The notes beneath the pieces are model-generated. The model was not told where the DNA came from. It made no database searches and was given only the letters and a program-made list of their open reading frames with translations. This document shows positions 3,070 to 22,377 of a stretch of 51,739 bases of DNA, one piece after another (positions within the stretch are counted from its first letter, which is position 1; each line of letters begins with the position of its first letter). This DNA comes from Escherichia phage vB_EcoS_G29-2, in the sequence record NC_049822.1; one strand, 5' to 3'. Made by a program: the position numbers and the translations under genes.

Positions 3070-3277
3070 GCGCGTTAAACACAAGTTTATTGATAATCAT
3101 GGTGATGCACTTGAGGTATACAAGTTTGGTGATCGCGTGTTTATTGATGGCACGTTTGAAGGTGGGCGCAGGCCGGATTTTAGGTCGATACTCACCATTA
3201 ACCAGGTGCGCAAGCTGGCGGATAAGTTAAATGATCTGGCAGATGAAATCGAATACAAGCAAATCCACTTTAATTGA
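3056..3277 (+). CDS. hypothetical protein
   Basis: 73-aa ORF overlapping upstream stop. Confidence 0.5.
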   Translation: METNKRVKHKFIDNHGDALEVYKFGDRVFIDGTFEGGRRPDFRSILTINQVRKLADKLNDLADEIEYKQIHFN

Positions 3278-3288
3278 TAGGTTTGATA

Positions 3289-3909
3289 ATGAAAAAATAC
3301 GAATTTGAACTTTGGGGCAGCAAATACCATTTTTCCACGAGCAAGCCGATTGTTATTGTTGATCTGGACGGCACTTTATCCGATGGAACGCATCGCTTGC
3401 ACCTGCTTCCGACAGAAGATTTACACCTTACAGAAAGCTGGTCTGAGTTCAATAAGGCGGCTTTTGGCGATTCGCCGATTAAGAGCACGGTTGCAGTGGT
3501 TAACGGATTATGGATGTCAGGATTTGCTATTGTTATCCTGACCGGACGTAGCGACGAAGTGATGGCGGACACCTTCAAATGGCTTAATGAAAATGGCGTC
3601 AAGTACGACGCATTAATCATGCGCCGCAAGGAAGACAACCGCAAAGACACAATCATCAAAGAAGAAGTCTTACGCGCTATCGGACTGGAAAACATTGTGT
3701 GCGCTTTTGATGATTCGCCGAACGTGGTTAAGCACTTCCGCAGTCTGGGGATCACAACCTATCAGGTCACGGAATACGACAAGCCACATAATCACATCCA
3801 ATCGCACGGCGTGGATGAATTGAAGCCAAAAATCGAATGCGAAGGCGAGCACTGTTTTAGTGTGGTTGATGGTAAATGTTTGCGTTGCGGCGTGGAGGGT
3901 TTGAAATGA
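3289..3909 (+). CDS. HAD-superfamily phosphatase (Pnk 3-prime-phosphatase-like), C-terminal Cys cluster
   Basis: motif IVIVDLDGTLSD (DxDGT) near N-terminus; C-terminal CEGEHC...CLRCG. Confidence 0.65.
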   Translation: MKKYEFELWGSKYHFSTSKPIVIVDLDGTLSDGTHRLHLLPTEDLHLTESWSEFNKAAFGDSPIKSTVAVVNGLWMSGFAIVILTGRSDEVMADTFKWLNENGVKYDALIMRRKEDNRKDTIIKEEVLRAIGLENIVCAFDDSPNVVKHFRSLGITTYQVTEYDKPHNHIQSHGVDELKPKIECEGEHCFSVVDGKCLRCGVEGLK

Positions 3910-18274: not shown

Positions 18275-18937
18275 ATGCATTTACCAAATGGATCGCAAAT
18301 TTTCGTTGAGAGCAATCGCGGAAGCGCTATTGAGGCAACGGCAGTATCAAACGCTAAAGATCCTGTATTCACCGTTGCATCTGGCGGAACTGCGTACAAG
18401 AAAGGTGATTATGTTATCATCACTGCGTCTTCTTGGGGTAAGCTGATTGATCGTGTTATGCGTGTAAAGACTAACGGTGAAGAAACAAGCGTGACTCTTG
18501 AAGGCGTAGATACTACTGATCAGAACGTTTTTCCGTCTGGCGGCACTGCATCTTTTGCCAAAATTGATGCATGGACTGAGATCCCTTGCGTTCAGGATTT
18601 GTCGCAGGACGGCGGCGAACAGCAATACTACACTTATCAGTGTTTGGCAGACGATCAGGAACAGCAGTTACCTACATATAAGAGCGCTGTTTCTCTTACT
18701 TACACTTTTGCGCACGAATACGATAACGCGATCTATCCGCTATTGCGTTCAGCAGATGAATCAGGCGAAGTGACCGCGCTTCGCATGTATGTACCGAAAG
18801 CGAAAGAGATGCGTTGCTGGGCTGGTGTCCTTTCGTTTAACGAGATCCCACAAACGACCGTTAACGAAATGGAAACTGTTTCCCTGTCTGTATCCCTGAA
18901 AGGTCGATTCACCTTCCTACCTTCTCAAGTAGCATAA
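18275..18937 (+). CDS. major tail protein
   Basis: 220 aa, strong terminator after, immediately upstream of chaperone pair and tape measure. Confidence 0.65.
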   Translation: MHLPNGSQIFVESNRGSAIEATAVSNAKDPVFTVASGGTAYKKGDYVIITASSWGKLIDRVMRVKTNGEETSVTLEGVDTTDQNVFPSGGTASFAKIDAWTEIPCVQDLSQDGGEQQYYTYQCLADDQEQQLPTYKSAVSLTYTFAHEYDNAIYPLLRSADESGEVTALRMYVPKAKEMRCWAGVLSFNEIPQTTVNEMETVSLSVSLKGRFTFLPSQVA

Positions 18938-18942
18938 TCACA

Positions 18943-18968
18943 AGGGGCGTTGCGCCCCTTTTTTTGTT
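18943..18968 (+). terminator. rho-independent terminator after major tail gene
   Basis: AAGGGGCG-TT-GCGCCCCTT + TTTTTTTG. Confidence 0.75.
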
Positions 18969-19003
18969 ACTGTACAATCATGCTACACGATTCATAATCA
19001 ATT

Positions 19004-19024
19004 CTTTTAACAAAAAGTGCTATC
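19004..19024 (-). promoter_or_regulatory. motif copy in inverted orientation upstream of chaperone gene (function unclear)
   Basis: CTTTTAACAAAAAGTGCTATC on + strand immediately before RBS of 19037. Confidence 0.3.
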
Positions 19025-19036
19025 AAGGAGAAAGAA

Positions 19037-19354
19037 ATGTCAAAAATGAAATTAACTCTTGGGCCGCTTCCTGACTTTAAATTACCAGTGAAATTTGCAA
19101 TGCCTAACGGAGAAGATCAAACAATTATCTTCACAGTTCGCCACCGCAAAACAAGTGAGATTCACGAGCGATACACGTCAGACACTCCAATGAGCGATGT
19201 TGAAATGATCACCTTCCTTGCTTCCGGTTGGAATCTTGATGATGAATTTAACGAAGAAAATATTAAACAGCTTCTTGATTACTACCCAGCAACAGCAATC
19301 GGATTAACTAGCGCATACATGAAAGCGCTTGCGGGGCAGCGAGTAAAAAACTAA
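19037..19354 (+). CDS. tail assembly chaperone (G-like)
   Basis: acidic 105 aa directly upstream of tape measure; ends at slippery heptamer. Confidence 0.7.
   Translation: MSKMKLTLGPLPDFKLPVKFAMPNGEDQTIIFTVRHRKTSEIHERYTSDTPMSDVEMITFLASGWNLDDEFNEENIKQLLDYYPATAIGLTSAYMKALAGQRVKN
19345..19351 (+). other. candidate -1 programmed ribosomal frameshift site (A AAA AAC)
   Basis: slippery heptamer in the zero frame of 19037-19354 two codons before stop; -1 frame is open into 19357-19665. Confidence 0.55.
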
Positions 19355-19356
19355 AA

Positions 19357-19665
19357 ATGGCGGTTTACCTGTTTTATCAGAAACCGCCGACAGATGCAGA
19401 GCTTGAGGCCGTTGGCCTTACAAGGGCAGACTATGAAGGAGAAGATCCGCCAGAGGTTATATTTGATGAAAGCATGATGCAATCATGGGATATATTTTGC
19501 GCAATGCAAACGCAATGGAGATGTTCTGGCGGTGGCGCTTACGGATTTGATTATAATGTCTTGCCTATGCTTTTTGAGATTTACAAGGTTGAGGATCGCG
19601 AGATGGCGCTAAACGACTTGCGAATCATGGAGCAAAAAGCACTTGAAATGATGCATTCAAAATAA
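19357..19665 (+). CDS. tail assembly chaperone frameshift extension (GT-like)
   Basis: -1 frame relative to 19037-19354, open from slippery site A AAA AAC at 19345-19351. Confidence 0.6.
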   Translation: MAVYLFYQKPPTDAELEAVGLTRADYEGEDPPEVIFDESMMQSWDIFCAMQTQWRCSGGGAYGFDYNVLPMLFEIYKVEDREMALNDLRIMEQKALEMMHSK

Positions 19666-19687
19666 GCGCCTACGGGCGCTTTTTTAT
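19663..19687 (+). terminator. rho-independent terminator after chaperone genes
   Basis: AGCGCC-TACG-GGCGCT + TTTTTATT. Confidence 0.7.
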
Positions 19688-19704
19688 TACTTGGAGGATT
19701 AATA

Positions 19705-22377
19705 ATGTCAGAACAATACGCAGGCTTGACGCTTGGGGTTGACGTTTCTCAACTAAACAATGCTGTAAAGTCTTTGCAGCAATTCAAGAAGGCAAACGAC
19801 GACGCAAAGGGAAGCGTTGAGAGTTTTGTTGATTCAGAGGTTGTTGCGAGACAAAGAGCCAAACAACTGGCTGAGGAATTGGCAAAGCAGAAGCAAGAAT
19901 TTAAAGCAATTCAGTCGGCAATAGATCCGACAGCAAGCAAAATGGATAAGTTGCGCCAGGCTGCGACACAGCTTGATGCGCTTTGGAAAAAAGGAATTGT
20001 GCCGGATGATACATTCTTTGAGTTAGGATCAATTCTTGAGACGCAGCAAAATAAACTGATCGCAACTAAAAAGGCACTAACTGAAGAAGGCCGAGCAGCG
20101 CTTGAGGAAGCAAAAAATAAGGCAAGAGCAGAGGCTGAGGCAAGAAAGTTCATTGCGGCATTGCAGGCGCAAGCTGACGCAGCGGAAAAAACAAAATCAG
20201 AGCTTGTAGAAATGAGAGCCGCACAACTTGGAGTTAGTGCAGAGGCCGCGCCATTTATTGCAAAAATGAAGGAGCAGGAAAAACAAGCCTCAAAACTTGG
20301 CGTTTCTATGGGGCAGTACAAGCAAGCAATGGCGCAATTGCCAATGCAGATCACTGACGTTGTTACTTCTCTTGCTTCAGGTATGCCAGTGTGGATGATC
20401 GCAATCCAGCAGGGCGGGCAAATCAAGGACTCATTTGGCGGTGTTGCTAACACGTTTAAAGCGCTAATGACATTTGTCACGCCTTTAAGTGTAGGGATGA
20501 CGGCGCTGACTGGTGCTCTTGGTTATGCTGCATATAATGCATACAAAGCAAATGCACAACTGAAGGAGATCACAAAAACCGTTCAGGAGGCAACTGGTCT
20601 TTCTGGTGATTTTGCGGAGCGGATTGCAACTGGAATCCAGGCGCTATCTGACAAGACAGGTGAGAGCGCCGACAATCTGGCAAAGGCATACATAAGCACT
20701 AAGGATGGAGCAACCGAGGCCATACAAAAACTCGTCGATGTTGGATTTACCTATGACGAAGCAAAGGCAAAAGTAAACGAATACAAAAAAGCATCAAGTT
20801 TTGTAAGTCTTAACAATGAAATTGCTGATCACAAAAACAAGGTTCTTGAGCTTGGCGATTCATGGTATGCGGTCTTAAAAGCAAAACGTGATTATGCTTC
20901 ACCGTCCGGCGGGCTGTTGGGGAAAGAGCTTGGTTATGTGAATCCAATGCTGCAATTTGCGAAAAACACCTATGAGGATATAGGAAAGATCGTAAAAGAT
21001 GCGAATAAGGATATGGCGGAACGAGCAGCACGCATCGACAGAGAAAATCTTTCCTTAAACAGAGTTCGAGCGGCGCAAGAGGCTTTAAACAAAGCCATAG
21101 AGGATCAGAAAAATGTAGCAAGGACAGCAGACGAAGAGTTGAAAAAACGAGCGGCTGAGAACGTGGAGTTCAGGCGAAAAGAGCTTGAAGAGGCGAAGAA
21201 GGCACAGCAGCAAAAGGAGAAAGTTGGCGGAGTTGTAAAAGCACCAACAGAGCAGCTTGATAAGGAGCTATATGTGCTCAAGGCGCAACTTGAAACGCTG
21301 AAAGAGCACCGAACTGTAAATGATGTTATTTCACGCCAGAGGCAATCTTTGTGGAGTATTGAAAAGCAGATCCAGATCCTAGAGGAAGCGCAAAGCAAAC
21401 GTAAGCTGACAAAAGCGGAACAGGCGTTACTAAACGAGCAAAAAACAGTTCTTGCTATGGCAAAAGAAAAGGCAGAGATAGGCGATCAGATTGTTTTGCA
21501 ACAGAGAAAGAACAAGCAATACCAGGAAGGGCTAAAGTTCATTCAGCAAACTTCAGATGCCATTGATGCTATGAACTTGCGACAGTCTGGAGCTACAGAT
21601 CTGCAAATCCAGCGAGAGCTTGAATTGAAAAAGTTGCGAACTGATTATGTTGCTGGCGGAGGTAGTATCGACGATGAAATTTATCAGCAGATGGAAGCAA
21701 AGCTGAAAGAGTATTACGCCACTGAGGATCAGCTAAGAAATAACTGGATTGCAGGAGCAAAAAACGCATGGGAGGTTTACGGACAAGATGCAATGGATAT
21801 GTACGGAAACGTGCAAGATATTGCAAGCGAGGCGCTCAACGGTCTAACCAACCAAATGGCTACATTCCTTGCAACAGGCAAGGCAAACTTTAAGAGCTTC
21901 GCAACGTCAATCATCCAAATGATTATCCAGATGATCACAAAGATGGTTATCTTTAATGCCATATCTGGTGCGATTGGCGGTGACACTTGGACGATTGGGA
22001 GCCTTCTTAAAAATGTTGGATTTGCAACTGGTGGATACACTGGCGACGGCGGGAAGTATGAGCCAGCAGGTGTTGTTCATAAAGGCGAGTTTGTCATGAC
22101 TAAGGAGGCCACGAAGCGGATCGGGGTTGGAAATCTTTACAAAATGATGCGCGGTTATGCAAATGGCGGCGTTGTTGGCGGAACTTCATACACTGGCGGC
22201 GGAGTTTCATCTGGAGCAACAAATCTTAATATTGGCGGGATCAGCGTTGATATTAACAACGGAAGCGATCCGAAAGGGTTGGAGACTGGCGTAAAAATGA
22301 TTTTCACTGATATGATTAAGCGTTCCTGTACGCAGGGTGGGGAAGTTTACGAATTTGTTATGTCTAAGCGGGGGTGA
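19705..22377 (+). CDS. tail tape measure protein
   Basis: 890 aa, extensive coiled-coil, Gly-rich C-terminus; position. Confidence 0.85.

What the first reader, a model, noticed from the sequence alone, without database searches (positions are those of the whole stretch)
19345..19351. Candidate -1 programmed frameshift joining the two tail assembly chaperone ORFs
The heptamer A AAA AAC lies in the zero frame two codons before the stop of 19037-19354, and the -1 frame is open from there into 19357-19665. This is the conserved chaperone frameshift arrangement of tailed phages.
Basis: partly seen in the sequence, partly recalled or inferred. Interest (0 to 1): 0.4.

Follow-up and report, generated by a model that had tools for sequence, protein, structure and literature searches.

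The report
Tail chaperone frameshift site, T1-like phage
This is the ordinary, already-recognised -1 ribosomal frameshift site that lets a T1-like coliphage make a small amount of a fused two-part tail assembly chaperone, a lambda G/GT analogue; it is real and well conserved but not new.

Summary
A_AAA_AAC (19345-19351) forms the last two sense codons of a 105-aa tail assembly chaperone gene (19037-19354, Pfam Phage_TAC_4). The stop TAA follows directly, and the -1 frame is open from 19312 through 19665 (DUF1799). The pair lies between the major tail gene and the tape measure gene of a Hanrivervirus, a T1-like phage.

In 104 distinct related junctions the second part is always in the -1 frame:
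- 63 have A_AAA_AAC.
- 29 have G_GGA_AAC at the same place.
- 12 have an A_AAG or A_AAA tetramer.

The ATG at 19357 is a rare substitution, shared with one of 40 close relatives. All other relatives lack a start codon there, yet the 41 codons after the slip site evolve as coding sequence.

A hairpin (19359-19388) starts 7 nt after the heptamer. It is more stable than 99% of synonymous recodings of the same peptide.

The homologous site is already annotated as a joined CDS (tfmS) in phage TLS, and genome announcements for T1-like phages Stevie and Skenny mention it. I found no experimental proof for this family. The heptamer is a weak shifter in E. coli (about 0.2-0.7%).

Verdict: real, ordinary, already known.

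The parts
18275..18937 (+). Major tail (tube) protein gene. This is the upstream context gene.
   Evidence: PF08813 Phage_tail_3, E=1.7e-64; phrog_584 major tail protein.
19037..19354 (+). Zero-frame tail assembly chaperone ORF (G analogue), 105 aa. Its SD, AAGGAG, lies at 19025-19030.
   Evidence: PF08748 Phage_TAC_4, E=1.1e-31, covering the whole protein. Sequence read.
19345..19351 (+). Slippery heptamer A_AAA_AAC in X_XXY_YYZ phase.
   Evidence: The heptamer is present at this position in 63 of 104 distinct related junctions. It is replaced by G_GGA_AAC in 29 and by an A_AAG or A_AAA tetramer in 12.
19352..19354 (+). Zero-frame stop TAA directly after the heptamer. Its role as a pause element is inferred.
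   Evidence: A stop is directly adjacent in 90 of the 92 heptamer-bearing distinct junctions, in both heptamer classes. No functional test was done.
19359..19388 (+). Predicted RNA hairpin 7 nt downstream of the heptamer. The outer stem is 8 bp (GGCGGUUU/AAACCGCC) and the inner stem 3 bp. It is a candidate frameshift stimulator.
   Evidence: - Folding: -15.0 kcal/mol for the 45 nt, against -5.3 +/- 2.9 for all other 45-nt windows of the same two genes, none as stable.
- Shuffles: z = -2.96 against dinucleotide shuffles.
- Codon choice: more stable than 99.3% of 3000 synonymous recodings.
- Relatives: 75% of cells paired across 48 relatives, against 49% or less with slid partners, but covariation is weak.
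19351..19665 (+). The -1 frame extension (T analogue, DUF1799), 104 codons, read after the shift. The mechanically listed ORF2 is 19357-19665.
   Evidence: - Family: PF08809 DUF1799, E=6.4e-13.
- Fused-length profile: phrog_17368, a 213-position profile, matches ORF1 at positions 1-107 and ORF2 at 112-211.
- Coding signature: seen from the first codon after the slip site.
19705..22377 (+). Tape measure protein gene. This is the downstream context gene.
   Evidence: PF06791 TMP_2 and PF09718 Tape_meas_lam_C.

Best explanation
This is a programmed -1 ribosomal frameshift of the lambda G/GT type.

**Proposed mechanism (inferred).**
- Most ribosomes translating the chaperone gene (19037-19354) terminate at TAA 19352 and make the 105-aa chaperone.
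- A small fraction slip back one base on A_AAA_AAC. The tRNA-Lys moves from AAA to AAA and the tRNA-Asn from AAC to AAA.
- The slip could occur during decoding or translocation of the heptamer. It could also occur while the adjacent stop codon waits for a release factor.
- The hairpin 7 nt downstream (19359-19388) probably helps by resisting unwinding.
- Shifted ribosomes read CUA AAA AUG GCG ... to 19665. The product is a 209-aa fusion of the chaperone domain with a C-terminal DUF1799 domain.

**Proposed function (by analogy with lambda).**
- The shared N-terminal part would coat the tape measure protein.
- The frameshift-only C-terminal part would recruit the major tail protein.
- The fixed low ratio of the two products would be set by the shift frequency.

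**Shown here:** the anatomy, the family-wide conservation of frame and motif, the absence of a start codon in relatives, the coding signature, and the predicted hairpin.

**Not shown here:** the actual shift, its frequency, and the roles of the stop codon, the hairpin and the two domains.
For: - **Anatomy and phase** of the heptamer, and the open -1 frame.
- **Position.** The two ORFs lie between the major tail and tape measure genes. Pfam assigns them to Phage_TAC_4 and DUF1799.
- **Frame and motif conservation.** Of 131 loci analysed, 104 distinct junctions have the T part in the -1 frame. Of these, 63 have A_AAA_AAC, 29 have G_GGA_AAC and 12 have A_AAG or A_AAA. The motif changes but stays a legal tRNA-slippage motif at the same codon. 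That fits ribosomal slippage and not chance.
- **No start codon in relatives.** The codon matching the window's ATG is AGG, ACG, GCG and so on. The first ATG in that frame usually lies 122 nt downstream. Only 1 of 40 close GenBank relatives shares the ATG, and no IMG/VR contig does.
- **Coding signature.** The 41 codons after the slip site behave as coding in the T frame. Third-position entropy is 1.13 against 0.47 and 0.39. Synonymous to nonsynonymous codon differences are 12085:10292, against 1800:20834 and 2379:20608 in the other two frames.
- **No SD before 19357**. The chaperone gene has AAGGAG and the tape measure gene has GGAGG.
- **Hairpin**. A different-sequence hairpin sits at the same spacing in the Pseudomonas-type G_GGA_AAC group, with 92% of cells paired against 53% or less when slid.
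- **Prior annotation.** The TLS RefSeq record has tfmS as a two-piece joined CDS at the homologous site. The Stevie and Skenny announcements state a conserved frameshift in T1-like chaperones (PMC4319613; PMC6763657).
Against: - I found no experimental detection of the fusion protein for any T1-like phage.
- A_AAA_AAC is a weak shifter in E. coli reporters: 0.16% alone, 0.19% with IS911 stimulators and 0.74% with the IS3 pseudoknot (Sharma et al. 2014, supplement). The yield may therefore be well below lambda's roughly 1:30.
- Hairpin covariation is weak. RNAalifold gives no consensus over all 48 enterobacterial relatives. Several lineages lack the hairpin.
- This particular phage has an ATG 2 nt after the stop, so some independent synthesis of the second part cannot be excluded.
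- There is no detectable sequence homology to lambda G or T. The functional analogy rests on gene position and arrangement.
Confidence: 0.88

Rival explanations
1. ORF2 is made on its own in this phage. Ribosomes would terminate at TAA 19352 and reinitiate at ATG 19357 (translational coupling), giving a free 102-aa DUF1799 protein instead of, or in addition to, the fusion.
For: - An ATG lies 2 nt after the stop.
- Such spacing can support termination-reinitiation; this rests on general knowledge.
- The ATG is also present in phage vB_EcoP_06.
Against: - There is no SD within 20 nt upstream.
- The ATG is absent from 39 of 40 close relatives and from every other lineage, where no start codon exists.
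- It therefore cannot be the conserved way of expressing this domain.
- It reads as an Arg-to-Met substitution inside the fusion.
Confidence: 0.06
2. Transcriptional slippage. RNA polymerase would add one A in the A6 run (19345-19350), producing mRNAs in which the two ORFs are in frame. The protein would be the same as with -1 ribosomal frameshifting.
For: - The site contains a run of six A.
- One extra A gives exactly the same fusion sequence.
- Sharma et al. note that homopolymer runs can cause transcriptional indels.
Against: - Twenty-nine distinct relatives use G_GGA_AAC, and others use CAAAGG. Those motifs have no long homopolymer but are valid tRNA-slippage motifs.
- Six A is shorter than the runs known to give efficient slippage in E. 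coli; this rests on general knowledge.
- The conserved phase of the motif relative to the zero frame matters only for ribosomes.
Confidence: 0.04
3. There is no recoding. The heptamer would be coincidental, and the downstream frame would be expressed only as the short 63-aa ORF from the internal ATG (about 19474), as annotated in several GenBank relatives.
For: GenBank records of JLBYU09 and KarlJaspers annotate exactly this 63-aa ORF.
Against: - The 38-41 codons upstream of that ATG are conserved as protein and show a coding signature.
- The DUF1799 match begins at ORF2 residue 20, upstream of that ATG.
- The slippery motif is conserved over very distant relatives.
Confidence: 0.02

Closest known systems
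Phage lambda G / GT tail assembly chaperone frameshift (Levin, Hendrix & Casjens 1993; Xu, Hendrix & Duda 2004, 2013, 2014; summarised in PMC5009743)
   Same: - Two small ORFs lie between the major tail gene and the tape measure gene.
- The second ORF is in the -1 frame and overlaps the 3' end of the first.
- There is an X_XXY_YYZ heptamer in the overlap.
- The second ORF has no independent start in the family.
   Different: - There is no detectable sequence similarity to lambda G or T (hhalign probability below 1%). The Pfam families also differ: Phage_TAC_4 and DUF1799.
- The heptamer is the weak A_AAA_AAC rather than the efficient G_GGA_AAG.
- The stop codon is directly adjacent to the heptamer, whereas in lambda it is five sense codons further on.
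- A predicted hairpin lies 7 nt downstream.
Phage TLS tfmS (joined CDS 18779..19416 of NC_009540) and the chaperone pairs of other T1-like phages (Stevie, Skenny)
   Same: - The site is homologous...CGC GTA AAA AAC TAA AAC GGG CGG TTT... with the same heptamer, adjacent stop and hairpin arms.
- The proteins are 56% (G part) and 87% (T part) identical to the window's.
   Different: - TLS has ACG where the window has ATG at 19357.
- The window's own genus, Hanrivervirus, is not annotated with the joined CDS in the records I checked.
IS1 insA-insB' -1 frameshift
   Same: It uses the same weak heptamer, A_AAA_AAC, to make a small amount of a fusion protein. Sharma et al. 2014 list it as a proven case.
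   Different: It is a transposase rather than a phage chaperone. No stimulator has been established for IS1, whereas here there is an adjacent stop and a predicted hairpin.

Membership tests
G/GT-type tail assembly chaperone programmed frameshift (Xu, Hendrix & Duda 2004) | Two small ORFs located between the major tail protein gene and the tape measure protein gene | tested here: met
   The order is 18275-18937 (PF08813), then 19037-19354, then 19357-19665, then 19705-22377 (TMP_2, Tape_meas_lam_C).
G/GT-type tail assembly chaperone programmed frameshift (Xu, Hendrix & Duda 2004) | The second ORF is in an alternative frame (-1) that overlaps the 3' end of the first, and the arrangement is conserved among relatives | tested here: met
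   The overlap is 19312-19351. The -1 relation holds in all 104 distinct intact junctions.
G/GT-type tail assembly chaperone programmed frameshift (Xu, Hendrix & Duda 2004) | A slippery sequence lies in the overlap, in the correct phase | tested here: met
   A_AAA_AAC at 19345-19351. Relatives have A_AAA_AAC, G_GGA_AAC, A_AAG or A_AAA at the same place.
G/GT-type tail assembly chaperone programmed frameshift (Xu, Hendrix & Duda 2004) | The second ORF has no translation start of its own | tested here: inconclusive
   This is met in all relatives except one. The window itself has ATG 19357 but no SD, so the feature cannot be settled from sequence for this phage.
G/GT-type tail assembly chaperone programmed frameshift (Xu, Hendrix & Duda 2004) | The fusion protein is made at a low fixed ratio and is required for tail assembly | not testable with these tools
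   This needs protein detection and phage genetics.
Pfam PF08748 Phage_TAC_4 / PF08809 DUF1799 | HMM score above the curated gathering threshold | tested here: met
   Phage_TAC_4 scores 110.1 bits against a cut-off of 21.1. DUF1799 scores 49.2 bits against a cut-off of 26.
Lambda gpG / gpT sequence families | Detectable sequence or profile similarity to lambda G or T | tested here: not met
   hhalign of the 7-sequence fusion profile against lambda G and T gives probabilities of 0.1% and 0.5%. The Pfam scan also gave no hit to lambda G or T families.
Canonical -1 PRF cassette (heptamer + 5-9 nt spacer + downstream RNA structure) | A stable downstream structure at the right spacing, supported by evolution | tested here: inconclusive
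   - For: a 7-nt spacer, -15.0 kcal/mol, an outlier against other windows in the same genes and against synonymous recodings.
- For: an equivalent hairpin in the G_GGA_AAC clade.
- Against: few compensatory changes and no RNAalifold consensus.
- Against: several lineages lack the hairpin.

The most novel reading that the evidence does not exclude
The most novel reading has three parts, and my evidence does not exclude any of them.

1. In this chaperone family the frameshift signal is a tuned composite. A deliberately weak X_XXA_AAC heptamer never upgrades to the 20-50 times stronger ..AAG form. An immediately adjacent stop codon and a hairpin 6-7 nt downstream would together set the product ratio.
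2. Lineages that switched to the stronger A_AAG tetramer dropped the hairpin.
3. In this phage and in vB_EcoP_06, the Arg-to-Met change at 19357 creates a reinitiation start. That could add a free DUF1799 domain, which no other family member makes.
Probability: 0.2. Interest if true: 0.3.

Novelty: already known. Interest (0 to 1): 0.15.

Why it matters
The main value is for annotation. GenBank records of the closest relatives (damhaus, JLBYU09, KarlJaspers, tonnikala, SLUR29) either omit the second part or call a truncated 63-aa ORF. The correct feature is join(19037..19351,19351..19665), a 209-aa frameshift product.

The comparative picture offers a tidy natural series for studying how weak slippery sites are tuned. 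It shows heptamer switching between A_AAA_AAC and G_GGA_AAC, an always-adjacent stop codon, and a hairpin at a fixed spacing. It does not change what is known about tail assembly chaperones.

Tried and rejected
- **Literature search for 'tfmS'** returned only unrelated chemistry and medicine papers. 'Hanrivervirus' plus 'frameshift' found no paper.
- **Megablast with a 51-nt query** across the site found nothing. The query is short, and much of it is low-complexity sequence that BLAST filters. A 44-nt blastn query worked.
- **RNAalifold on all 48 enterobacterial junctions** gave no consensus structure. The hairpin is therefore claimed for a subset of lineages only.
- **Covariation tests** gave only weak compensatory signal, so I do not claim proof of structure (one search had only 12 sequences at 92% identity).
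- **Database searches with no useful hit:**
  - PDB sequence search with the fusion profile found nothing.
  - NCBIfam found nothing.
  - Rfam gave only a chance InvR match at 18 bits, E = 0.4.
  - hhalign against lambda G and T showed no similarity.
- **Upstream SD-like stimulator, considered and rejected.** The GGGG at 19333-19336 is a glycine codon context that varies among relatives (GGG, GGA, GGT).
- **Second slippery site in the overlap, considered and rejected.** None is present.
- **Structure prediction not run.** I also did not run the large protein searches. The family assignment was already clear, and they would not have changed the verdict.

Full report
**What is in the sequence**

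- The window is a T1-like coliphage. Region 18900-19800 is 98-99% identical to Hanrivervirus phages (damhaus, egaa, pSf-1 and others; family Drexlerviridae).
- ORF1 (19037-19354, 105 aa) ends ...CAG CGA GTA AAA AAC TAA. The heptamer A_AAA_AAC (19345-19351) is therefore in X_XXY_YYZ phase, forms the last two sense codons, and is directly followed by the stop.
- ORF2 (19357-19665) is in the -1 frame. That frame is open from 19312, so the overlap is 13 codons. It contains no other slippery heptamer.
- A shift at the heptamer gives a 209-aa protein, join(19037..19351,19351..19665), with the junction ...QRVKN|LKMAVYLFYQKPP...

**Is it more than chance?**

- The string AAAAAAC is not enriched: 18 copies against 22 expected.
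- In-frame X_XXY_YYZ heptamers occur at 52 of 15,648 codon positions in the window's ORFs, so about 0.04 are expected in a 12-codon overlap.
- Of those 52, only this one opens a long -1 extension, of 104 codons. The next longest are 54 and 43.

**Gene context**

- ORF1 is a Pfam Phage_TAC_4 tail assembly chaperone (E=1e-31). ORF2 is DUF1799 (E=6e-13).
- The upstream gene is the major tail protein (PF08813). The downstream genes are the tape measure protein and lambda-like M and L homologues.
- One PHROG profile of 213 positions (phrog_17368) matches ORF1 with its first half and ORF2 with its second half. Proteins of fused length therefore already exist in phage annotation.
- ORF1 has an SD (AAGGAG, 19025-19030) and the tape measure gene has one (GGAGG, 19693-19697). 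The 20 nt before ATG 19357 have none.
- Terminator-like hairpins bracket the pair, at 18942-18960 and 19664-19681.

**Comparative evidence**

I collected 130 related loci from GenBank phages, IMG/VR contigs and GTDB genomes. I then located both protein parts in each by tblastn.

- *Motif:*
  - 63 junctions have A_AAA_AAC, and in 61 of them the stop follows directly.
  - 29 junctions have G_GGA_AAC with the stop following directly. These are prophages of Pseudomonas, Burkholderiales, Neisseria and others, at about 25-50% protein identity.
  - 12 junctions have an A_AAG or A_AAA tetramer one codon before the stop. These are T1-like viral contigs at about 50-64% T-part identity, plus one metagenome bin.
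  - The motif is thus replaced by other legal tRNA-slippage motifs at the same codon. That is what selection for ribosomal slippage predicts. It also argues against transcriptional slippage, since G_GGA_AAC has no long homopolymer.
- *Exceptions:*
  - Four contigs have five A instead of six. Two of them carry other frame breaks, so these are probably sequencing errors.
  - One contig has frame breaks upstream of the junction.
  - In two loci the G part was not detected.
- *The ATG at 19357 is not conserved.*
  - Close relatives read AAA AGG GCG, and others have ACG, GCG and so on.
  - The first ATG in that frame is usually 122 nt downstream.
  - Only PP532814.1 (vB_EcoP_06), one of 40 close GenBank records, shares the T at 19358. 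No IMG/VR contig does.
- *The segment after the slip site is coding.* Over 45 distinct sequences, the 41 codons right after the slip site behave as coding in the T frame.
  - Entropy is 0.47, 0.39 and 1.13 at codon positions 1, 2 and 3.
  - Synonymous to nonsynonymous codon differences are 12085:10292, against 1800:20834 and 2379:20608 in the other two frames.
  - The DUF1799 match and several invariant residues (Y114, K116, P117, L123, G127 of the fusion) lie in this segment.
  - The domain is therefore translated from the slip site onward, and in nearly all relatives only a frameshift can achieve that.

**Possible stimulators**

- *The hairpin in the window.* A hairpin (GGCGGUUU 19359-19366 paired with AAACCGCC 19381-19388, plus a 3-bp inner stem) starts 7 nt after the heptamer.
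  - The 45 nt fold at -15.0 kcal/mol, against -5.3 +/- 2.9 for all other 45-nt windows of the two genes. None of those is as stable.
  - The fold is more stable than 99.3% of 3000 synonymous recodings of the same peptide.
- *The hairpin in relatives.*
  - In about half of the 92 distinct relatives scored, the equivalent window is within the most stable 5% of its own genes.
  - The Pseudomonas-type G_GGA_AAC group has a hairpin of different sequence at the same 6-nt spacing, with 92% of cells paired against 53% or less for slid partners.
- *Limits of the hairpin evidence.*
  - Compensatory changes are few.
  - RNAalifold finds no consensus over all 48 enterobacterial junctions.
  - The A_AAG lineages have no hairpin at all.
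  - I therefore treat the hairpin as a probable but unproven stimulator.
- *The adjacent stop codon.* It is conserved in 90 of 92 heptamer junctions, which suggests a pausing role. That is inference only.

**Expected efficiency**

- In E. coli reporters, A_AAA_AAC gave 0.16% -1 frameshifting alone, 0.19% with IS911 stimulators and 0.74% with the IS3 pseudoknot.
- G_GGA_AAC gave nearly the same: 0.16%, 0.22% and 0.89%.
- The ..AAG forms gave 4% and 39-43% with the two stimulators (Sharma et al. 2014, supplement).
- The same paper lists IS1, which uses A_AAA_AAC, as a proven case.
- The fusion is therefore probably a minor product, likely below the roughly 1:30 ratio reported for lambda GT to G (PMC5009743).

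**Comparison with what is known**

- The arrangement is the lambda G/GT type. In lambda, G and the G part of GT bind the tape measure protein. The T part binds the major tail protein, and the ratio of the two products matters (PMC5009743).
- There is no detectable sequence similarity to lambda G or T. In lambda the stop lies five sense codons after G_GGA_AAG. The resemblance is therefore one of position and logic, not of sequence family.
- Within T1-like phages the site is already recognised:
  - RefSeq TLS annotates tfmS as a two-piece joined CDS at the homologous heptamer.
  - The announcements of T1-like phages Stevie (PMC4319613) and Skenny (PMC6763657) state a conserved chaperone frameshift.
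- Records of the window's own genus and of Warwickvirus do not annotate it. They show either a truncated 63-aa ORF or nothing.
- I found no experimental demonstration for this family.

**Verdict**

The feature is real, strongly conserved and already known in kind. Its practical value is in correcting annotation. The minor open points are the roles of the adjacent stop and the hairpin, and whether the rare ATG at 19357 allows some independent synthesis of the second domain.

Noticed in passing
window 19005-19023, and 19 other sites (for example 1255, 1719, 6767, 41043, 45309, 50204, 51586): A 19-bp repeat, TTTTARCAAWWMRTGCTAT, occurs 20 times with up to 2 mismatches, against 0.03 expected. One copy sits between the terminator after the major tail gene and the SD of the chaperone gene. 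It matches the 22-bp intergenic repeat described for T1 and Stevie, whose function is unknown (PMC4319613).
   Followed up: partly
window 19357-19359 (T at 19358): The ATG that makes ORF2 look like an independent gene is AGG (Arg) in 39 of 40 close relatives. It is shared only with PP532814.1 vB_EcoP_06. Lying 2 nt after the stop, it could allow termination-reinitiation in this phage.
   Followed up: partly
L012 1809, L025 1805, L069 1805, L089 1806: Four IMG/VR relatives have GTAAAAACTAA, with five A instead of six, at the slip site. This puts the T part in the +1 frame. L025 and L069 also carry other frame breaks, so homopolymer sequencing errors are the likely cause, but a real length polymorphism is not excluded.
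   Followed up: partly
window 18942-18960 and 19664-19681: Terminator-like hairpins with T tails bracket the chaperone gene pair on both sides. The T1 record annotates terminators at the equivalent places.
   Followed up: no
L110, L113-L116, L028 (A_AAG); L120-L130 (A_AAA): Some T1-like lineages replaced the heptamer with a tetramer one codon before the stop. The A_AAG lineages have essentially no downstream structure, with MFE near 0 against about -6.3 to -7 for control windows of the same genes. The A_AAA lineages keep a moderate hairpin.
   Followed up: partly
L001 2075-2266, L002 2075-2266 (equivalent to window 19474-19665): GenBank records of close relatives annotate only a 63-aa ORF from an internal ATG for the second part, or nothing at all (damhaus, tonnikala, SLUR29). 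The joined frameshift CDS is missing from those records.
   Followed up: yes
window 3897-3903 (+): An in-frame GGGTTTG lies one codon before the stop of the mechanical ORF 3274-3909, with 54 open codons in the -1 frame. The ORF starts with TTG, and the nearby copies of the repeat described above are on the minus strand. The ORF may therefore not be a real gene.
   Followed up: no
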